A DNA stretch of 64,000 nucleotides. It comes from a bacterium. Its GTDB lineage: Bacteria > Patescibacteriota > Minisyncoccia > UBA6257 > UBA9933. Position numbers and translations under genes: made by a program. The stretch lies in assembly GCA_021796335.1 (NCBI GenBank), contig JAJYHZ010000002.1, forward strand, positions 100,516 to 164,515, in the 5' to 3' direction. Shown piece by piece: positions 4,319-57,854 of the stretch (position 1 is the first letter of the stretch; every line of letters starts with the position of its first letter). Under the pieces are notes generated by a model. That model did not search any database and was not told the origin of the DNA. It saw only the letters and a list, made by a program, of their open reading frames with translations.

Positions 4319-4569
4319 CGTATTTTCGGATCAGAGCTTGATATGATGGGAACATTAAAATTTATATTATCCATTCCCACCAAAAGCCGCTGGCCGTTTG
4401 AAAGCCACCCTAATAAGCACGGCGTTTTCGACGCCGCCTTGCATTTCGCAATTTCCCTAAGCTCGCTCGGAGAACTTTTGATTGTAATTTGCTCTCCTGT
4501 TTTAAGAGTAACAATGTATCCTCTTCGACACATTGCCAAACCAATCATAACTTTCATACCTTTATCCAT
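4303..4569 (-). CDS. hypothetical small protein
   Basis: 88-aa ORF with its own downstream terminator. No recognisable motifs. Preferred over the overlapping + ORF 4343..4774, which runs into hsp20. Confidence 0.35.
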   Translation of the reverse strand: MDKGMKVMIGLAMCRRGYIVTLKTGEQITIKSSPSELREIAKCKAASKTPCLLGWLSNGQRLLVGMDNINFNVPIISSSDPKIRVRLF

Positions 4570-5141: not shown

Positions 5142-5819
5142 TTAATTGATTTTAATGTTATCATTTTTTTTCAAAATCTCAAAATCGTTAAAAATAAAAA
5201 AAGCCGCAAAAATCAGTATGATAATCGGATAAATAAATATGCCGCTAAAAACGATTATGGAATAGTTAAAAATTGCATGAAGAGCGGTTGCCAGAATTAA
5301 GCCAAACACGGAAAAAATAAAAACTTTTTTCTTTATGATTCCTTTTGCCCAATAGTAGCCGACTAATCCGGAACTGAGTACGTGCAGCAGAGTCGCGCCC
5401 AAAAATCGGAATACGAGCAATCCGATCCGTTCATCAAGTATCTGATTGCCGAACATTATGCCTATGTTCTCTATGGCGGCCATGCCGGAAGCGGCAGTTA
5501 TCATGTAAATCATGGCATCAATCGGCTCGTCGAAAAATTTGCTTTTACGCATTATCAAAAAAACCGGAAAGAATTTAAGAATTTCTTCGACGGCGGCAAA
5601 TCCGAATATTGGGCCGAAAGTTTTTAAATTCGCAAAATTGTCCGGAAATTCCAGCTGTAACAGATATTGAATCCCGGCCGCAAGAAGAGCGGAAAACATT
5701 CCGACCAGAAAAAGGGGGAATATTGTTCTTTTCGGTTCCGGATGAATATCTTCCTGAAGAAAAAATCCCAACCAGATAAAACTGGGCAACAAACCCAAGA
5801 ATATTAGCAGAACATTCAT
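5142..5819 (-). CDS. PrsW-family intramembrane protease-like membrane protein
   Basis: Polytopic membrane protein with FAAVEEILKF (EExxK), GMAAIEN and LLHVLSSG motifs resembling the PrsW/CPBP-type protease signature. Confidence 0.55.
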   Translation of the reverse strand: MNVLLIFLGLLPSFIWLGFFLQEDIHPEPKRTIFPLFLVGMFSALLAAGIQYLLQLEFPDNFANLKTFGPIFGFAAVEEILKFFPVFLIMRKSKFFDEPIDAMIYMITAASGMAAIENIGIMFGNQILDERIGLLVFRFLGATLLHVLSSGLVGYYWAKGIIKKKVFIFSVFGLILATALHAIFNYSIIVFSGIFIYPIIILIFAAFFIFNDFEILKKNDNIKIN

Positions 5820-7383: not shown

Positions 7384-8328
7384 TCATTCGTGTTCGGATT
7401 TTATTCTGCCGCCTAAAGTACGCAGTTCTTTTAAAGCTTCCCCGGCCTGTTCTTTATTCGGCGGGATGCCGTGCCACAGGTAATCCGATTCCATGAAGCT
7501 GACTCCCTTGCCGGGTATTGTGTGAGCGATGATCACGGTCGGCTTTTCGAAAGTCGCTTTGGCTTCGGTTACGGCTGAAACAAATTCTCGGATATCATGG
7601 CCGTCCACCTCCAAAACATTCCAGTTGAAAGATTCGTATTTGTCACGCAGGGAGTCAAGCGGCATCACATCTTCGGTAAAACCGTCGATTTGAATATTAT
7701 TGCGGTCAATAACAACGGTCAAATTATTTAATCTGTTTTTTCCGGCAAACATAATCGCTTCCCAGACAATCCCTTCTTGATGTTCCCCATCGGACATTAT
7801 GCAATAAATGTGTTTTTGTTTTGCTTGTACTGAGCCTGTCAAAGCATCCATTTTGGCGGCCAAGGAAATGCCTATTGCCTGAGGCAAACCGTTGCCTAAA
7901 GGGCCAGAAGTTATTTCCACGCCGGGCAATGATTTGCGATGCGGATGGCCCTGCAAACGGCTTCCTAATTTTCTTAAGGTCATAAGTTGTTCCATGGGAA
8001 AATATCCGGCGCGAGCCAAGGCAGCGTACAAAACGGGGCAAATGTGGCCGTTTGACAAAATTAGGCGGTCACGGTCAGGCCAATTCGGATTTTTGGGATT
8101 ATGATTAAGAATGTGAAAATAAAAAGCGGCGAAAATATCCGCCATGCCCAACGATCCCGCCGAATGGCCGGATTTAGCTTTAAGAAGCATGTTAATAATG
8201 TCTTCCCTGATTTGATTGGCGGTTTCTTCCAATAACGCCACTTTTTTTTCATGCAAATATTCCGAAGAAAATCGCTGAATTACTGAATCACCGGGTTGTT
8301 TTTTCTTTAATAATTTAGCCATATACAA
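7384..8328 (-). CDS. tktA_N: transketolase, N-terminal (TPP-binding) subunit
   Basis: SGHSAGSLGMADIF, GPLGNGLPQAIG and DGEHQEG motifs of the transketolase PP domain. 314 aa, the size of the split N-terminal subunit. Confidence 0.85.
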   Translation of the reverse strand: MYMAKLLKKKQPGDSVIQRFSSEYLHEKKVALLEETANQIREDIINMLLKAKSGHSAGSLGMADIFAAFYFHILNHNPKNPNWPDRDRLILSNGHICPVLYAALARAGYFPMEQLMTLRKLGSRLQGHPHRKSLPGVEITSGPLGNGLPQAIGISLAAKMDALTGSVQAKQKHIYCIMSDGEHQEGIVWEAIMFAGKNRLNNLTVVIDRNNIQIDGFTEDVMPLDSLRDKYESFNWNVLEVDGHDIREFVSAVTEAKATFEKPTVIIAHTIPGKGVSFMESDYLWHGIPPNKEQAGEALKELRTLGGRIKSEHE

Positions 8329-12096: not shown

Positions 12097-12141
12097 AATC
12101 AAATTTTGAGCGATCGCTCAAAATTTGATTGGTTATCCACA
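12097..12141 (+). repeat. dispersed 45-bp element: 34-bp perfect palindrome plus DnaA box (copy 1)
   Basis: AATCAAATTTTGAGCGATCGCTCAAAATTTGATT at 12097-12130, then GG, then TTATCCACA at 12133-12141. Confidence 0.9.
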
Positions 12142-19317: not shown

Positions 19318-19974
19318 TTATTTTTTAAATTTCTTTTTCCACTCTTCTATTTTGGCGTGATTGCCGGATAATAAGATTTCCGGGATTTTATATTTTTTGT
19401 TTTTGAATTTTATTTCTGCCGGACGGGTATAAGTCGGGATGCCGACTCCATTTCTTTTTTCTTCCAAAGATTCTTCTTTTCCCAACACACCGGTAATTTT
19501 GCGGGAAATCGAATCAATTAGAACCATTGCCGCCAGTTCGCCTCCGGTTAGAACATACGGTCCGATAGAAATTTTTTCGGTTTTAATTTTCAAATCTTTC
19601 AGAATTTTTTCCACGCGTTCATCAACTCCTTCATAGCGGCCACAAACAAAAATTAAATGATCATTCTTTTTCGCAAATTGCTGGGATAGCTTGTCATCAA
19701 ATTTTTTACCAGCCGGAGAAAATATAATTACTTTGGATTTTTGGGATGGCTTGGTTTTCAAAATTGCTTTTGTAATCGGCTCGGCATACATAACCATGCC
19801 AGGACCGCCGCCAAACGGCCGATCATCAACTTTTTTATGTTTATCAGTCGTAAAATCGCGCAAATTATGGATTTTGATTGAAATAAGCTTGTTTTTTTGG
19901 GCACGCTTTAAAATAGACTCGTTTAGGTAAGAATCAAAAATGCCTGGAAATATTGTTATTATATCAAATCGCAT
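19318..19974 (-). CDS. trmD: tRNA (guanine37-N1)-methyltransferase
   Basis: MRFDIITIFPGIFDSYLNESILKRA...RPFGGGPGMVM. Start taken at MRFDI; the track ORF extends to 20025. Confidence 0.85.
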   Translation of the reverse strand: MRFDIITIFPGIFDSYLNESILKRAQKNKLISIKIHNLRDFTTDKHKKVDDRPFGGGPGMVMYAEPITKAILKTKPSQKSKVIIFSPAGKKFDDKLSQQFAKKNDHLIFVCGRYEGVDERVEKILKDLKIKTEKISIGPYVLTGGELAAMVLIDSISRKITGVLGKEESLEEKRNGVGIPTYTRPAEIKFKNKKYKIPEILLSGNHAKIEEWKKKFKK

Positions 19975-24289: not shown

Positions 24290-24323
24290 TTTTGTCTACT
24301 ATCACGCGTGATAGTAGACAAAA
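24290..24323. repeat. 34-bp palindrome TTTTGTCTACTATCAC-GC-GTGATAGTAGACAAAA
   Basis: Perfect 16-bp arms. Inner 8 bp (ACTATCAC) are identical to the palindrome at 20953; outer 8 bp differ. Confidence 0.9.
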
Positions 24324-29470: not shown

Positions 29471-29705
29471 TGAAAAGTATATGAGGTGCGAAAAATATTT
29501 TCAAATATCTTCAGATAAATTTCAATACCAAAAACATAAAGAAGAGGGCGGAAGTTGGAAAGAAAAATCTCAGTCTGATATTTTACGCCTGTCTGCCGGC
29601 AGGCAGAATCGTCAAATATTAGATTAGTTATCCACATTTGACTGATTATCCACAACTGCGCAGCGAAACTACTTAGAAAACCGCCCCGCCAAGCGGGACG
29701 GTTTT

Positions 29706-31127: not shown

Positions 31128-31140
31128 AAGAGCCCCGATG

Positions 31141-31270
31141 TGGGATTTTCCCTCGGCTGAATACCAAGTGGGTTGGCTCAATCCGCCGAATATTGGCGAA
31201 TGCTTTTGCCTTCCCTTAAAATTCGTATTGACCCGAGAATCACTATCGAGGCTCATTATAATTATAACAA
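31141..31270 (+). repeat. conserved ~130-bp non-coding element, copy A
   Basis: Homologous to 31483..31612 at about 75% identity by eye. Shared blocks GGATTTTCCCTCGGCTGAATACCAAGTGGGT, AATGCTTTT, TTGACCCGAGAATCACT, ATAATTATAA. Confidence 0.7.
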
Positions 31271-31332
31271 GAAAGACTTGCGCGATATATGCCGATATAT
31301 TTCTGACCTAGAATTTATATCTCGATCTTCCT

Positions 31333-31377
31333 AATCAAATTTTGCGCGATCGCGCAAAATTTGATTGGTTATCCACA
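31333..31377 (+). repeat. palindrome plus DnaA box element (copy 2, GCGCGATCGCGC variant)
   Basis: AATCAAATTTTGCGCGATCGCGCAAAATTTGATT at 31333-31366, then GG, then TTATCCACA at 31369-31377. Both arms changed together (GAG to GCG, CTC to CGC), keeping the palindrome perfect. Confidence 0.9.
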
Positions 31378-31439: not shown

Positions 31440-31472
31440 AAAAAATCCGACGCGAGGTCGGGATCTTTTTGG
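31440..31472 (+). terminator. intrinsic terminator AAAAAAATCCGACGCGAGGTCGGGATCTTTTT
   Basis: CCGAC..GTCGG stem followed by a T-run on the + strand, separating the two module copies. Confidence 0.55.
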
Positions 31473-31482
31473 AACCCTGAGG

Positions 31483-31612
31483 TTGGATTATCCCGGCTAA
31501 TACCAGGTGGGTGAGCTCAATTGCAATCCGCAGACTGCAATGCTTTTACTCTCCCAATTAATCCATTATTGATCCGAGTATCACTCTCAGGTGTCCAATA
31601 TAATTATAAAAA
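31483..31612 (+). repeat. conserved ~130-bp non-coding element, copy B
   Basis: See copy A. The closing helix shows a compensatory change: CCTGAG..CTCAGG here versus CCTCG..CGAGG in copy A. Confidence 0.7.
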
Positions 31613-31648
31613 ATTAAAAATAAAATTCAATACCGAAAAAATCTATAG

Positions 31649-31687
31649 ATTTTGAGCGATCGCTCAAAATTTGATTGGTTATCCACA
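31649..31687 (+). repeat. palindrome plus DnaA box element (copy 3, left arm decayed)
   Basis: ATTTTGAGCGATCGCTCAAAAT core at 31649-31670, then TTGATTGG, then TTATCCACA at 31679-31687. Confidence 0.85.
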
Positions 31688-38051: not shown

Positions 38052-38096
38052 AATCAAATTTTGAGCGATCGCTCAAAATTTGATTGGATATCCACA
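38052..38096 (+). repeat. palindrome plus DnaA-box element (copy 4, box variant ATATCCACA)
   Basis: AATCAAATTTTGAGCGATCGCTCAAAATTTGATT at 38052-38085, then GG, then ATATCCACA at 38088-38096. It lies about 50 bp upstream of the cobO start. Confidence 0.9.
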
Positions 38097-49477: not shown

Positions 49478-49506
49478 CCGCCTCAGAAAACCTGAGGCGG
49501 TTTTTA
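49478..49506 (+). terminator. gyrA terminator CCGCCTCAG-AAAA-CCTGAGGCGG plus TTTTT
   Basis: Perfect 9-bp stem followed by a T-run. Confidence 0.75.
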
Positions 49507-49563
49507 CTCTTTTATAAAAGAGTATACAAATTTAACGATCGTTGGAATTGTATACTTATGTTT

Positions 49564-50079
49564 TTAAACAATATTAACCTCTTTTGCGGCAAAGAATTTT
49601 AAATACGGTAAAATATTTATTTGATTCAGATATTGAATAAATTCTTCCGGAAGCGCCGCTGGACCTATCCATACGCTCTTTTGCAATAATTTAAATCCTA
49701 AATTAATTAATTCTTTTCTTAGCCAATATCTTTCTTTTTTGTGCTCTTCAGGAATATCAAATATTATAATTAAGTCTTTTTTGAAACTTTTTTGATATTG
49801 CTTAAAATGTTTTAATTTTTTCTCAATCAAATTCTTTCCGATTTTTGTTGTCACCCAACCATCTTTTTTCTTTTCCAATAATCCTTTCTTTTTTAGCCTA
49901 TAAAGAGTTGTTTTGAGTGTTTGTTCTTTTATATTTTGATAATTTATCTCTGATTTATATTTATACGGAACAGCTTCAAGTCCGACCAATTTACGCCGGA
50001 TCGCTTTATAGCTAGTGTGATAACCCGAAAAGCATATTGTTAATACATCATCTGTTAAACTCATAATTTTAGTATACAT
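49564..50079 (-). CDS. winged-HTH regulator fused to a Cas2/VapD-like (PaaX_C-like) domain
   Basis: N-terminal half TLYRLKKKGLLEKKKDGWVTTKIGKNL resembles a PadR/PaaX wHTH. C-terminal DLIIIFDIPEEHKKERYWLRKELINLGFKLLQKSVWIGP matches the Cas2 core pattern (YD.. .R.. L...G.R.Q.SV). I recognise the family only tentatively. Confidence 0.45.
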   Translation of the reverse strand: MYTKIMSLTDDVLTICFSGYHTSYKAIRRKLVGLEAVPYKYKSEINYQNIKEQTLKTTLYRLKKKGLLEKKKDGWVTTKIGKNLIEKKLKHFKQYQKSFKKDLIIIFDIPEEHKKERYWLRKELINLGFKLLQKSVWIGPAALPEEFIQYLNQINILPYLKFFAAKEVNIV

Positions 50080-50165
50080 ATTCCACGATCGTTGTAAATG
50101 TATACCAGCTTAATTTAAAATTATATTGAATTTGAAACATAATTTGATACAATTATTTCAATTTT

Positions 50166-51544: not shown

Positions 51545-51958
51545 ATGAAAAAAAATAATTTAATTAAACTTATTCCGATAATTTCCATTGCCAGCGCTGC
51601 TTTAAATTTTTCCCAATTCTATCAGACTTATGCCAAAGAAGATTCCACCACGGGTCTTGTTCGCTGCCACGGTCTCAATTGCAGCTTTTGCGACCTTATA
51701 TCTCTAGTCAGCAGATTGTTTAATACGGCTTATGAACTGGCCATCGCCATAGCCACTGTTTTGCTTTTGGTGGGCGCGATTCAGATTATGATTTCCGGAG
51801 CAAAACCCGGACTTTTGGAAAAAGGGAAAAAAACGATTACGGGGTCTGTTATCGGTTTGGTTATTCTGTTCGCTTCCTGGATTATTATTGACACAGTGAT
51901 TAAAATTTTAACCGGGGGAGCCGCATTCGGGCCGTGGAACGCTTTGCCGCCCTGCTAA
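51545..51958 (+). CDS. VirB2/TrbC-like pilin paralog 1
   Basis: Signal anchor plus two hydrophobic helices. LISLVSRLFNTAYELAIAIATVLLLVGAIQIM...GSVIGLVILFASWIIIDTVIKILTGGA parallels the VirB2 mature region (...KTLTGGG). Confidence 0.5.
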   Translation: MKKNNLIKLIPIISIASAALNFSQFYQTYAKEDSTTGLVRCHGLNCSFCDLISLVSRLFNTAYELAIAIATVLLLVGAIQIMISGAKPGLLEKGKKTITGSVIGLVILFASWIIIDTVIKILTGGAAFGPWNALPPC

Positions 51959-52060
51959 ATAACGAATAACTGATGGCAAGAAAAAAAATCGTCATTCTGA
52001 GAAAAACGGAGCAAAGCGAAGAATCTCATTTAAGGATAGGCTATATTTGATGCTCGCTAT

Positions 52061-52516
52061 TTGCCATTAGTTATTAATTTATTGTATATTTTGAAAATGG
52101 ATTATCTTACAGGAAAATTTTTACTGGGGATTTTTAAAATACAAAGGGTTTTTGCTTTTAATAATCCTTCCAGTAATACAGGGTCATTCAATAACCCAAC
52201 ATCTAATACGGGTTCGTTTAATAATCCAGGAGTAAACGGCGGAGGATCATCCCTTGTGATAAAACCGCCAACTTCTTACAACAATATCTACGACTTAATC
52301 AACGGCATTGCCAGCTATATAATCTGGATAGCCATACCTATTGCCACTATTATGATTATTTTCGGAGCTTACCAGATATTATTTTCAACAGGAGATCCGG
52401 CCAAGGTTAAAAAAGGAAGGGATACGATTTTATATTCTTTGGTGGGGTTAATGGTGGCATTGCTTGTTAAGGGAATTATTTCTATAATTAAGCAAGTTTT
52501 AGGAGTAAATAACTAA
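52061..52516 (+). CDS. VirB2/TrbC-like pilin paralog 2 (with NNPSSNTGSF repeats)
   Basis: Same two-helix C-terminal architecture (IIWIAIPIATIMIIFGAYQILFSTGDPAKVKKG...VGLMVALLVKGIISIIKQ). Low-complexity Asn/Ser/Gly repeats precede it. Confidence 0.5.
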   Translation: MPLVINLLYILKMDYLTGKFLLGIFKIQRVFAFNNPSSNTGSFNNPTSNTGSFNNPGVNGGGSSLVIKPPTSYNNIYDLINGIASYIIWIAIPIATIMIIFGAYQILFSTGDPAKVKKGRDTILYSLVGLMVALLVKGIISIIKQVLGVNN

Positions 52517-52522
52517 AATATA

Positions 52523-52900
52523 TTGAAAGGTCGCCAGAAATTATTCTATTTTATGAAAAAATTAGGAATCGGATTAATGGCAGCAGTTTTGCCGGCATTG
52601 GCAGCGGCGCAAACCGCTCCGCTAAATCAAGGTGGCATTCCTCCATCACTACCCGACACGAGCGTTAATTCATATGGCGGATTGATTGGATTTTTAAGCA
52701 CTGTCGGCAACTGGGCGTTTGGAATTTTGTTGGCTTTAGCAGTTTTATTCATTATTTATGCCGCTTATCTTTATCTTTTCTCGCAAGGAGGAGATAACAC
52801 CTCAAAAGCCAAGAGTGTTATTATTTACGCGATAGTTGCAATCGTAGTGGCTATTATTGCAAAAGGATTAGTGACAATTGCTCAAACCTTAGTTCACTGA
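52523..52900 (+). CDS. VirB2/TrbC-like pilin paralog 3
   Basis: Signal peptide MKKLGIGLMAAVLPALAAAQ, then AFGILLALAVLFIIYAAYLYLFSQGGDNTSKAKSVIIYAIVAIVVAIIAKGLVTIAQ. Confidence 0.5.
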   Translation: MKGRQKLFYFMKKLGIGLMAAVLPALAAAQTAPLNQGGIPPSLPDTSVNSYGGLIGFLSTVGNWAFGILLALAVLFIIYAAYLYLFSQGGDNTSKAKSVIIYAIVAIVVAIIAKGLVTIAQTLVH

Positions 52901-56080: not shown

Positions 56081-56114
56081 AATCAAATTTTGAGCGATCG
56101 CTCAAAATTTGATT
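56081..56114 (+). repeat. 34-bp palindrome element (copy 5, no DnaA box)
   Basis: AATCAAATTTTGAGCGATCGCTCAAAATTTGATT at 56081-56114, then TCATATTTT instead of GGTTATCCACA. It lies between the tRNA-Leu 3' end and the recombinase stop. Confidence 0.9.
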
Positions 56115-57176: not shown

Positions 57177-57185
57177 TGTGGATAA
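57177..57185 (-). promoter_or_regulatory. perfect DnaA box (TGTGGATAA, TTATCCACA on the minus strand)
   Basis: Exact 9-mer consensus. A weaker GGGGGATAA follows at 57197-57205. It lies in the AT-rich non-coding region with the parS array. Confidence 0.6.
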
Positions 57186-57354: not shown

Positions 57355-57392
57355 TCTGTAAATGATGTTTCACGTGAAACATCATTTACAGA
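57355..57392. promoter_or_regulatory. parS: parS site 1 within a 38-bp perfect palindrome
   Basis: TGTTTCACGTGAAACA at 57366-57381 is the exact consensus parS for chromosomal ParB/Spo0J. Flanks TCTGTAAATGA and TCATTTACAGA extend perfect symmetry to 38 bp. Confidence 0.85.
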
Positions 57393-57404
57393 AAAGTTCC
57401 CTTT

Positions 57405-57442
57405 TTTGTCAGGCATGTTTCACGTGAAACATGCCTGACAAA
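57405..57442. promoter_or_regulatory. parS: parS site 2 within a 38-bp perfect palindrome
   Basis: TGTTTCACGTGAAACA at 57416-57431. Flanks TTTGTCAGGCA and TGCCTGACAAA. Confidence 0.85.
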
Positions 57443-57457
57443 TTTTAATGTTTCGCG

Positions 57458-57491
57458 TGTCATCAATGTTTCACGTGAAACATTGATGACA
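57458..57491. promoter_or_regulatory. parS: parS site 3 within a 34-bp perfect palindrome
   Basis: TGTTTCACGTGAAACA at 57467-57482. Flanks TGTCATCAA and TTGATGACA. Confidence 0.85.
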
Positions 57492-57507
57492 AATTTTTCT
57501 CTCTTTT

Positions 57508-57545
57508 TGTGTCACGAGTGTTTCACGTGAAACACTCGTGACACA
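57508..57545. promoter_or_regulatory. parS: parS site 4 within a 38-bp perfect palindrome
   Basis: TGTTTCACGTGAAACA at 57519-57534. Flanks TGTGTCACGAG and CTCGTGACACA. Confidence 0.85.
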
Positions 57546-57745: not shown

Positions 57746-57761
57746 TGTTTCGCGTGAAACA
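57746..57761. promoter_or_regulatory. parS: parS variant (1 mismatch: TGTTTCGCGTGAAACA)
   Basis: Single central A to G change from the consensus. Further half-sites lie at 57067-57099 (halves split by 7 nt), 57446-57458 and 57815-57838 (two direct ATGTTTCAC). Confidence 0.6.
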
Positions 57762-57781
57762 TATCCCTATAAAAAGTCTTT

Positions 57782-57802: not shown

Positions 57803-57854
57803 ACTTTTTTAATTAATGTTTCACAAATGTTTCACACTTATTTATACTTAATGC

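What the first reader, a model, noticed from the sequence alone, without database searches (positions are those of the whole stretch)
12097..12141. Dispersed 45-bp element: 34-bp perfect palindrome with a GCGATCGC core fused to a perfect DnaA box, 5 copies in 64 kb
AATCAAATTTTGAGCGATCGCTCAAAATTTGATT-GG-TTATCCACA recurs at 12097, 31333, 31649, 38052 and 56081. All copies are intergenic, and the palindrome-GG-box spacing is identical wherever a box is present. Copy 2 carries GCG/CGC in place of GAG/CTC on both arms, a compensatory double change that keeps perfect symmetry. This argues for selection on a dimer-binding site or hairpin rather than neutral decay. Copy 4 has box variant ATATCCACA. 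Copy 5 lacks the box and sits between a tRNA and xerD. Copy 3 has lost its outer left arm. Extra perfect boxes lie at 29628-29636 and 29646-29654, upstream of the HD-hydrolase gene. Candidate roles are a regulator operator coupled to DnaA (a DnaA-controlled regulon or titration sites), a MITE-like mobile repeat, or a nucleoid-organising site. Copies 1 and 4 lie about 50-150 bp upstream of minus-strand operon starts (the Clp-like operon and cobO).
Basis: seen in the sequence. Interest (0 to 1): 0.75.

Follow-up and report, generated by a model that had tools for sequence, protein, structure and literature searches.

The report
Palindromic sites of PaaX-like proteins
The repeated 34-bp perfect palindrome is real, and it most likely belongs to a previously undescribed class of DNA sites bound by small PaaX-like proteins in ultra-small (Patescibacteria) bacteria, while the attached DnaA box is peculiar to this one genome.

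Summary
Five intergenic copies share a 34-bp perfect palindrome, four carry a GG + DnaA-box tail, and GCGATCGC occurs nowhere else in the window. The host is a Patescibacteria (CPR) genome, not a cyanobacterium, so this is not HIP1.

The 22-bp core ATTTTGNGCGATCGCNCAAAAT recurs in at least 7 other lineages, mostly Patescibacteria. Each time it is extended to a 34-56-bp perfect palindrome with lineage-specific arms. The nearest relatives lack the element at orthologous loci, and no DnaA box accompanies it outside this genome.

The key clue is the window's own PaaX-like gene (winged helix plus Cas2-like PaaX_M domain, 49564-50079). It is bracketed by two 34-bp CGATCG-centred quasi-palindromes. 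All four homologues fetched from other genomes are bracketed the same way. In one metagenome lineage, core-type palindromes bracket such a gene.

Best reading (about 0.5): these are cognate sites of a PaaX-like homodimer, spread as sharply bounded copies and probably acting as operators. The main rival (about 0.2) is a REP/RAYT-like selfish system. A DnaA regulon or titration role is not supported.

The parts
12097..12141 (+). Copy 1: 34-bp perfect palindrome + GG + TTATCCACA. On the minus (gene) strand it follows an intrinsic terminator (12183->12165) and precedes the small-ORF/ClpB-like AAA+/MFS/transketolase operon.
31333..31377 (+). Copy 2: palindrome with the symmetric C/G variant of the N pair + GG + TTATCCACA. 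On the minus strand it lies upstream of the second tandem unit of a structured sRNA candidate.
31649..31687 (+). Copy 3: 22-bp core + right arm + GG + TTATCCACA. The left outer arm is replaced, creating a new 16-bp palindrome at 31638-31653. On the minus strand it lies upstream of the promoter-like TTGAAT-16-TATAAT and the first sRNA unit.
38052..38096 (+). Copy 4: palindrome + GG + ATATCCACA. It lies 36 bp upstream of the likely cobO ATG (38016). On the minus strand a TATAAT lies immediately upstream of the box.
56081..56114 (.). Copy 5: palindrome alone, between convergent tRNA-Leu (end 56032) and the Xer-like recombinase gene (stop 56131).
49564..50079 (-). PaaX-like protein gene (winged helix + PF20803 PaaX_M Cas2-like domain). 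The likely true start is the ATG at 50064 (family consensus MSLT...). This is the candidate type of protein that binds this class of palindromes. Its own sites are of the GTATACAW type, so it is probably not the binder of the finding's subfamily.
50072..50105 (.). 34-bp CGATCG-centred quasi-palindrome GTATACAT-ATTCCA-CGATCG-TTGTAA-ATGTATAC. It lies immediately upstream of, and overlaps the start region of, the PaaX-like gene. Its gene-proximal arm contains a -10-like TATACT.
49522..49555 (.). 34-bp CGATCG-centred quasi-palindrome GTATACAA-ATTTAA-CGATCG-TTGGAA-TTGTATAC, 9 bp past the stop of the PaaX-like gene. An identical 34-bp solo copy with unrelated flanks lies outside the window (L045:19672-19705).

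Best explanation
The five copies are solo members of one subfamily of long CGATCG-centred palindromes. These palindromes are the cognate DNA sites of small PaaX-like proteins of Patescibacteria, which have an N-terminal winged helix and a C-terminal Cas2-fold PaaX_M domain and are about 165-200 aa long.

Proposed working (inferred): a homodimer binds the two arms of the ~34-bp site. This resembles E. coli PaaX, which binds inverted hexamers 27 bp apart. Each paralogue's gene is bracketed by two copies of its own palindrome. The upstream copy overlaps the gene's core promoter, which implies autorepression. Further sharply bounded copies sit in other intergenic regions, mostly at the 5' boundary of transcription units just after the previous gene's terminator. 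There the bound protein would repress or insulate transcription of cobO, the ClpB-like operon and two sRNA units.

The subfamily in the finding is defined by the core ATTTTGNGCGATCGCNCAAAAT. Its regulator gene lies outside the 84 kb seen here.

Perfect symmetry, including at positions that are free to vary, is kept by hairpin-templated (template-switch) correction, by selection for symmetry, or by both.

The GG+DnaA-box tail is a passenger or add-on specific to this genome's 45-bp unit.

Shown: the anatomy, the distribution, the bracketing of PaaX-like genes and the fold. Inferred: binding, repression, and which paralogue binds which subfamily.
For: 1) The window's PaaX_M gene is bracketed by two 34-bp CGATCG-centred quasi-palindromes with identical 8-bp outer arms.

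2) All four homologues fetched with context (34-53% identity) are bracketed in the same way by 34-46-bp palindromes. The arms are the same on both sides of a gene. They are similar between close orthologues ([G/A]TATACA[T/C]) and different in distant ones.

3) In metagenome lineage C a PaaX_M gene (hmmsearch E 3e-19) is bracketed by two palindromes of the finding's own core type. Two further solo copies lie on nearby contigs.

4) The model fold best matches Rv0674 and E. coli PaaX, and then Cas2 for the C-terminal domain. The N-terminus resembles PadR/MecI/MarR winged helices.

5) E. coli PaaX binds TGATTC-N27-GAATCA (PMC9493321).

6) The core is conserved in genomes of 30-58% GC, with lineage-specific symmetric arms.

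7) CGATCG sites are bimodal: arms are either 3-6 bp or 17-28 bp, with no decayed copies.

8) The upstream palindromes of PaaX-like genes carry a -10-like hexamer 7-9 nt before the ATG (read from the sequence).

9) All copies are intergenic.
Against: - No PaaX_M paralogue bracketed by AATCAA-type palindromes was seen in the 84 kb available. The link to the finding's own subfamily therefore rests on lineage C, where the gene carries an in-frame TAG.
- The position relative to promoter-like hexamers is not constant, at roughly -100, -75, -70 and +25. Copy 5 and several relatives lie between convergent genes, where no promoter is expected.
- Identical 34/45-bp units with sharp edges are not how operators usually arise.
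- The closest relatives lack the element upstream of the orthologous cobO and sRNA genes. Any regulation is therefore recent.
- In the GTATACAW type the outer arms are conserved and the inner 6 bp are free. In the finding's type the inner part is conserved and the outer arms vary. The recognition geometry is therefore unclear.
- No binding or expression data exist.
Confidence: 0.5

Rival explanations
1. REP/RAYT-like selfish or domesticated mobile system. The PaaX-like (winged helix plus Cas2-fold) protein recognises, and directly or indirectly mobilises, its own palindrome. The gene bracketed by two palindromes is the master copy, and the dispersed solo palindromes are non-autonomous copies (REPIN-like). 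They would have no primary regulatory role.
For: - The gene is bracketed on both sides by its repeat, and solo copies are dispersed, which is the REP/RAYT arrangement.
- Copies have sharp 34-bp boundaries, unrelated flanks and no target-site duplication. This includes identity at non-symmetric inner bases.
- The distribution is patchy, and the element is absent from orthologous sites in relatives.
- Copies occur in convergent intergenic regions. Two different palindrome types lie next to each other, as in BIME clusters.
- The Cas2-like domain keeps an invariant FDIP(E) Asp.
- Each arm set folds as a stable DNA hairpin, -13.7 to -15.5 kcal/mol.
Against: - No HUH/Y1 or other transposase domain is present. 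PaaX-family proteins are known as repressors, and Cas2 alone is not an integrase.
- Copy number is low: 5-6 in 84 kb, and 2 exact-core copies in each of two whole MAGs.
- There are no decayed copies.
- It was not found on phage, viral or plasmid DNA.
- No insertion polymorphism could be observed, because contigs of other samples break at the repeat.
Confidence: 0.2
2. One reading: a composite operator at which a palindrome-binding dimer cooperates with DnaA. This would form a DnaA-controlled regulon or a set of DnaA titration sites near the origin.
For: - Three perfect boxes and one 8/9 box lie at a fixed 2-bp spacing from the palindrome. A random 11-bp tail would match the box consensus with probability of about 2e-5.
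- Perfect boxes are enriched in the window even without the element, 3 against ~0.5 expected.
- A cluster of four parS sites and further boxes at 57.1-57.8 kb suggests an origin-proximal region.
- All four boxes have the same orientation.
Against: - There is one box per element, with no box cluster and no unwinding element.
- No dnaA or dnaN gene lies in the 84 kb examined.
- Copy 5 and the flanking variant lack a box.
- None of about 25 related palindromes in other lineages has a box within 30 bp. The box is therefore not part of what is conserved.
- The four boxes can descend from one ancestral 45-bp unit, so they may count as a single event.
Confidence: 0.1
3. An RNA-level element. When transcribed, the palindrome forms a 15-17-bp hairpin that acts as a 5'-UTR stabiliser, a translational gate, an RNase III site or a bidirectional terminator.
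For: - Several copies lie 8-36 nt upstream of a start codon with a -10-like hexamer just upstream: copy 4, L009, L020, L025 and L032b.
- Copy 5 and L009b/c lie just after stop codons.
- The hairpin is stable.
- The N pair covaries.
Against: - Across about 300 arm base pairs there is not one G-T wobble or mismatch, and the centre is self-complementary. That points to a DNA-level constraint rather than an RNA one.
- No U-run follows copies 1-4, and each is already preceded by a canonical terminator.
- It does not explain the conserved AT-rich core in 53-58% GC genomes, or the bracketing of PaaX-like genes.
- There is no Rfam match.
Confidence: 0.1
4. A classical MITE: abutted terminal inverted repeats of a DDE transposon, mobilised in trans.
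For: - The repeat is short, palindromic, multi-copy and intergenic.
- Its phyletic distribution is patchy.
Against: - There are no target-site duplications at any copy.
- It has no internal sequence and is only 34 bp long.
- The conserved part is the centre, not the tips.
- No transposase is encoded in the 84 kb.
Confidence: 0.03

Closest known systems
PaaX repressor and its operator (E. coli / Pseudomonas phenylacetate catabolon)
   Same: - The protein has an N-terminal winged helix followed by the Cas2-like PaaX_M domain (Pfam PF20803 E 3e-16).
- The best fold matches are Rv0674 and E. coli PaaX.
- The operator is built from two inverted half-sites separated by a long spacer (TGATTC-N27-GAATCA).
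- The regulator represses its own promoter.
   Different: - The Patescibacteria proteins are half the size and lack the C-terminal effector domain.
- There are no paa genes.
- The sites are 34-56-bp, largely perfect, spacer-less palindromes with a conserved CGATCG centre.
- The gene is bracketed on both sides.
- Identical solo copies are dispersed in the genome.
REP elements / REPINs and their RAYT transposases
   Same: - Both are extragenic palindromic repeats able to form hairpins.
- Both have a single gene flanked by the repeats, with solo copies elsewhere.
- Neither has target-site duplications.
- The repeat sequence is lineage-specific and tracks the associated protein.
- Neighbouring clusters of different repeat types occur.
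   Different: - The associated protein is not an HUH/Y1 transposase.
- The palindromes are perfect rather than imperfect.
- There is no GTAG motif.
- There are only a handful of copies rather than tens to hundreds.
parS / ParB centromere sites
   Same: - Both have a palindromic core conserved across distant lineages that is bound (for parS) by a symmetric dimer.
- In this very window four parS cores are likewise embedded in 34-38-bp perfect palindromes with site-specific symmetric arms.
   Different: - The core sequence and length differ (22 bp against 16 bp).
- The distribution is patchy.
- Copies within a genome share their arms.
HIP1 (GCGATCGC) of cyanobacteria
   Same: It contains the same octamer.
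   Different: - HIP1 occurs about once per kb, including in genes, in cyanobacteria.
- Here the octamer occurs only inside the five elements of a Patescibacteria genome.

Membership tests
PaaX-family regulator with its operator | Protein with an N-terminal winged helix and a PaaX_M (Cas2-like) domain | tested here: met
   Window ORF 49564-50079 hits PF20803 at E 3e-16. The profile hits PadR/MecI/MarR winged helices and Cas2 weakly. The model's best fold matches are 3kfw (Rv0674) and 8a39 (E. coli PaaX).
PaaX-family regulator with its operator | Operator made of two inverted half-sites far apart, overlapping the regulator's own promoter | tested here: met
   This holds for the GTATACAW, ATGTAAACATTAT and GACAAAC types, in 5 of 5 genes examined. 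For comparison, E. coli PaaX binds TGATTC-N27-GAATCA (PMC9493321).
PaaX-family regulator with its operator | The finding's own subfamily (ATTTTGNGCGATCGCNCAAAAT core) flanks a PaaX-like gene | tested here: inconclusive
   This is seen in L032 (palindromes 4391-4430 and 5146-5193 around a PaaX_M ORF, E 3e-19), but that ORF has one in-frame TAG. No such gene lies in the 84 kb of the source genome.
PaaX-family regulator with its operator | C-terminal effector-binding domain and control of paa genes | tested here: not met
   The proteins are 125-230 aa with only the PaaX_M hit. No paa genes are in the neighbourhoods.
PaaX-family regulator with its operator | Protein binds the site | not testable with these tools
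   This needs EMSA or footprinting.
REP/RAYT (REPIN) system | Extragenic palindromic repeats, with a single gene flanked by them | tested here: met
REP/RAYT (REPIN) system | The flanked gene encodes an HUH/Y1 (IS200/IS605-like) transposase | tested here: not met
   The flanked gene is PaaX_M-like. No Y1_Tnp domain is among the called genes of the 84 kb.
REP/RAYT (REPIN) system | Imperfect palindrome with a conserved 5' GTAG, and tens to hundreds of copies | tested here: not met
   The palindromes are perfect and have no GTAG. There are 5-6 copies in 84 kb, and 2 exact-core copies in each of two whole MAGs.
MITE | Target-site duplication flanking terminal inverted repeats, with internal sequence | tested here: not met
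   The flanks of all copies are unrelated, and the unit is 34/45 bp with no interior.
oriC / DnaA-box cluster (datA- or DARS-like) | Consensus DnaA box present | tested here: met
   TTATCCACA at 12133, 31369 and 31679, and ATATCCACA at 38088.
oriC / DnaA-box cluster (datA- or DARS-like) | Several boxes clustered with an AT-rich unwinding element, or next to dnaA/dnaN, and conserved in relatives | tested here: not met
   There is a single box per element. No dnaA or dnaN gene was seen. No box lies next to related palindromes elsewhere.
HIP1 (cyanobacterial highly iterated palindrome) | GCGATCGC at about 1 per kb throughout a cyanobacterial genome | tested here: not met
   There are 5 sites in 64 kb, all inside the element. 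Protein homologues are Patescibacteria.
Intrinsic terminator | GC-rich stem-loop followed by a U-run | tested here: not met
   No T-run follows copies 1-4 on either strand, and canonical terminators lie 15-60 bp upstream of them. Copy 5 has a weak T-rich tail on the + strand only.
parS | Core TGTTTCACGTGAAACA | tested here: not met
   The core is different. Genuine parS cores are present separately at 57355-57545.

The most novel reading that the evidence does not exclude
Patescibacteria harbour a REPIN-like system in which a winged-helix protein with a Cas2-fold domain (not an HUH transposase) is bracketed by long perfect palindromes and propagates them. The five copies here would be its non-autonomous progeny. 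That would be a new kind of protein-repeat partnership, possibly a new mobilisation mechanism acting on 34-bp hairpin or cruciform DNA.
Probability: 0.2. Interest if true: 0.85.

Novelty: new variant of a known kind. Interest (0 to 1): 0.6.

Why it matters
Patescibacteria have tiny genomes, few recognisable regulators and almost no experimentally defined cis-elements. This work links a concrete set of DNA sites to a large uncharacterised protein family. That family has 5,143 clusters at 50% identity with E<=1e-3. I found no paper connecting it to these bacteria.

The link gives directly testable 34-mers, candidate target genes (cobO, a ClpB-like operon, an sRNA) and a bracketed-gene signature that can be searched genome-wide. 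The strict maintenance of symmetry at freely varying positions, seen here and around the parS sites, also bears on how long palindromes persist and evolve in bacteria. It further shows that a perfect DnaA box next to a repeat need not indicate DnaA biology.

Tried and rejected
- **Heat-shock operator (HAIR/CIRCE-like, because of TTGAG..CTCAA and the ClpB-like operon).** Rejected. Neighbouring genes in other lineages are unrelated (SurE, UPF0047, L25, TopA, GNAT, PilD, AlaRS and others), and the N position varies.
- **Conserved neighbouring gene by all-against-all BLAST of flanking ORFs.** None found.
- **LexA or other known operators.** No SOS genes are nearby, and the literature search was uninformative.
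- **Known RNA family.** Only tRNAs reach the gathering threshold, and only noise appears at E<=10.
- **The element as a promoter.** No consistent -35/-10 geometry on either strand (by eye).
- **Phage or plasmid origin.** The core and the 45-mer are absent from IMG/VR, INPHARED and PLSDB, and no PaaX-like relatives occur in viral contigs.
- **Strain-level insertion polymorphism.** Contigs from other samples end at the repeat, so no empty sites could be seen.
- **Chance hits of the 22-mer.** Hits inside genes (metE in Bacteroidales, dnaE in Nitrospirales) and in HIP1-rich cyanobacteria lack the extended symmetry and were set aside.
- **Three actinobacterial hits downstream of a promoter-like site of a P450 gene.** These may be an unrelated operator and were not followed.
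- **ParB-paralogue (Noc/KorB-like) site.** Considered because of the parS parallel. No ParB-like gene was seen, and the PaaX link explains more.

Full report
**Observation**

The 34-mer AATCAAATTTTGAGCGATCGCTCAAAATTTGATT is exact at 12097, 38052 and 56081. At 31333 it carries a symmetric GAG/CTC->GCG/CGC change. No match is expected by chance. A fifth copy at 31649 keeps the 22-bp centre, the right arm and the tail.

GG+TTATCCACA follows three copies and GG+ATATCCACA follows a fourth. Copy 5 has no tail. Alignment of the flanks shows that similarity ends at the 34/45-bp unit. The exception is copies 2 and 3, which belong to a ~316-bp tandem duplication. GCGATCGC occurs five times in the window, always inside the element. 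The same sequences are present in an independent assembly of the same organism.

**Host**

The window encodes RNase J, several aminoacyl-tRNA synthetases, GyrA, EF-G, ComEC, a ClpB-like AAA+ protein and T4SS-type pilins. Its AspRS is 100% identical to a protein on a 236-277-kb metagenomic contig. The nearest other homologues (76% or less) are named Patescibacteria/Paceibacterota. This is therefore not a cyanobacterium and the octamer is not HIP1.

**Context of the copies**

On the minus strand, which carries the neighbouring genes, copies 1-4 each lie 15-60 bp after a canonical intrinsic terminator and before the next transcription unit.
- Copy 1 precedes the small ORF plus ClpB-like operon.
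- Copies 3 and 2 each precede one unit of a tandemly duplicated, strongly folding ~130-150-nt RNA candidate (z = -5.4).
- Copy 4 lies 36 bp before the likely cobO ATG.
- Copy 5 lies between convergent tRNA-Leu and a Xer-like recombinase gene.

The position relative to promoter-like hexamers varies, at roughly -100, -75, -70 and +25. No target-site duplication is visible.

**Relatives elsewhere**

I scanned 185,579 species genomes and the JGI metagenomes for the core ATTTTGNGCGATCGCNCAAAAT. This returned 14 and 19 loci.

Hits in HIP1-rich cyanobacteria, or inside genes, show little or no further symmetry. In at least seven other lineages the core is extended by 6-17 bp per arm into a 34-56-bp perfect palindrome. 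These lineages include Parcubacteria MAGs, metagenome contigs of 30-40% GC, and two lineages of 53-58% GC. One of the latter has a Ca. Spechtbacterales protein as its nearest named homologue.

The arms are shared within a genome but differ between lineages: GATAACAT, GGTTGAT, GTTCACC, TAATAG, CACCA, GTGTGAA, and AATCAA in the window. The free N/N' pair is complementary in all 17 such sites. Individual sites extend the symmetry beyond their family consensus. All are intergenic, in tandem or convergent gene contexts, and the neighbouring genes are unrelated. CGATCG sites are bimodal: arms are either 3-6 bp or 17-28 bp.

**Absence from the nearest relatives**

The closest available relatives (75-76% AspRS identity) have no such palindrome in about 20 kb each. 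This includes the regions upstream of the orthologous cobO (L039) and upstream of the orthologous RNA gene, which there has its own TTG...TATAAT promoter directly after ndk. The element is therefore a lineage-specific gain.

**The DnaA box**

A box with at most one mismatch lies within 30 bp of the palindrome only in this genome. None of about 25 other palindromes has one. No dnaA or dnaN gene lies in the window or in 10 kb on either side. A perfect box is very unlikely to be a random tail. However, the four boxes may descend from a single 45-bp ancestor, so they may count as one event.

**The clue to the binding protein**

A scan for spacer-less palindromes and a look at every CGATCG site turned up two 34-bp quasi-palindromes:
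- GTATACAT-ATTCCA-CGATCG-TTGTAA-ATGTATAC (50072-50105)
- GTATACAA-ATTTAA-CGATCG-TTGGAA-TTGTATAC (49522-49555)

These bracket ORF 49564-50079. That ORF is a 171-aa protein with a weak winged-helix signal and a PaaX_M (Cas2-like) domain, E 3e-16.

I fetched four homologues with context (53, 53, 42 and 34% identity; Harrisonbacteria and others). Every one is bracketed by 34-46-bp palindromes whose arms match on both sides of the gene:
- ATATACA[T/C] arms with a CGATCG centre in the two closest.
- ATGTAAACATTAT arms with a GCGATCGC centre in the third.
- TTGACAAACTACG arms with a CCATGG centre in the most distant.

The upstream site overlaps a -10-like hexamer 7-9 nt before the ATG.

In metagenome locus L032 a PaaX_M ORF (E 3e-19, but with one in-frame TAG) is bracketed by two palindromes of the finding's own core type. 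More copies of that type lie at L028 and L033.

The predicted structure (pLDDT 75.7) best matches Rv0674 and E. coli PaaX, and then Cas2 chains. E. coli PaaX binds inverted hexamers 27 bp apart (PMC9493321). The short PaaX-like family has 5,143 cluster representatives at E<=1e-3. I found no paper linking it to Patescibacteria.

**Copy-paste behaviour**

A third GTATACAA-type site, just outside the window (L045:19672-19705), is identical to 49522-49555 over exactly 34 bp. The identity includes the non-symmetric inner bases, and the flanks are unrelated. These sites therefore spread as sharply bounded units. It sits 28 bp from a variant palindrome, ATCGTATATTTTGACGATCGTCAAAATATACGAT. A similar pairing of two palindrome types occurs in L018.

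**Interpretation**

The most economical reading is that the finding's palindromes are cognate sites of a PaaX-like homodimer, encoded by a paralogue outside the region seen. They would act as operators or roadblocks at the starts of transcription units.

Their origin as exact copies, the bracketing of the gene on both sides, the patchy distribution and the convergent-gene locations also fit a REP/RAYT-like selfish system built on a different protein. I keep that as the main rival and as the most novel reading.

Perfect symmetry at unconstrained positions, and the new small palindrome at the damaged edge of copy 3, point to hairpin-templated correction. That process can mimic the appearance of compensatory selection.

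A DnaA regulon or titration role, an RNA hairpin role, and a classical MITE are each less well supported, for the reasons given under the rival explanations.

**Limits**

- No binding, expression or population data exist.
- The cognate gene for this subfamily was not seen in the source genome.
- The association rests on five PaaX-like genes plus L032.

Noticed in passing
window 57355-57545 (also 57177-57185, 57746-57763, 57816-57840): Four tandem canonical parS cores (TGTTTCACGTGAAACA, ~51-bp period) are each embedded in a 34-38-bp perfect palindrome. The outer arms differ from site to site, but all carry TGT[C/A]A at the same distance from the core (TGTCA-N4-parS-N4-TGACA). More parS-like half-sites and DnaA boxes lie nearby, between the Xer-like gene and a UPF0102 gene. 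This may be a centromere or origin-proximal region. The symmetric extensions are unexplained.
   Followed up: partly
window 31440-31600 (-) and 31130-31300 (-); L041:11983-12142: A tandemly duplicated ~130-150-nt structured RNA candidate lies downstream of ndk. It has its own promoter and terminator (MFE -60 kcal/mol, z -5.4). It is conserved in a relative with 76% AspRS identity and has no Rfam match.
   Followed up: partly
window 24290-24323: A singleton 34-bp perfect palindrome, TTTTGTCTACTATCACGCGTGATAGTAGACAAAA (centre ACGCGT), lies in the intergenic region next to the TatD gene. It may be a site of another paralogue.
   Followed up: no
L045:19734-19767 and 19672-19705 (source contig, about 7 kb beyond the window's left end): The variant palindrome ATCGTATATTTTGACGATCGTCAAAATATACGAT lies 28 bp from a solo GTATACAA-type site, between convergent RtcB and a small ORF. 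Two palindrome types are therefore clustered.
   Followed up: partly
L009:1299-1336, 2841-2880, 7975-7992; L018:4776-4813: Other CGATCG-centred perfect palindromes with different, GC-rich arms occur in the same genomes that carry the core type. The GACAAAC arms of L009 resemble the arms flanking the distant PaaX-like gene in L057.
   Followed up: partly
window 29628-29636 and 29646-29654: Two perfect, co-oriented DnaA boxes 18 bp apart overlap the start of the HD-domain hydrolase gene. They are not attached to any palindrome.
   Followed up: no
window 31638-31653: A new 16-bp palindrome, AAAATCTATAGATTTT, overlaps the left edge of copy 3's core where the outer arm was lost. It looks like a template-switch event.
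   Followed up: no
window 49505-49524: The 20-bp perfect palindrome TACTCTTTTATAAAAGAGTA abuts the downstream PaaX-type site, just after the gyrA terminator.
   Followed up: no
L003:575-596, L029:1048-1069, L008:7849-7870: In 65-72% GC Actinomycetota the same AT-rich 22-mer sits next to a conserved CTGCTAGACA motif, downstream of a TTGACG promoter-like site. In L029 this lies ahead of a P450-like gene. It is probably an unrelated operator.
   Followed up: no
window 51545-52900: Three consecutive small genes have T4SS-pilin domains (PF18895).
   Followed up: no
L035, L048, L049 (other samples): Contigs of the same organism from other assemblies end at or next to the palindrome copies. The repeat therefore breaks short-read assemblies.
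   Followed up: no
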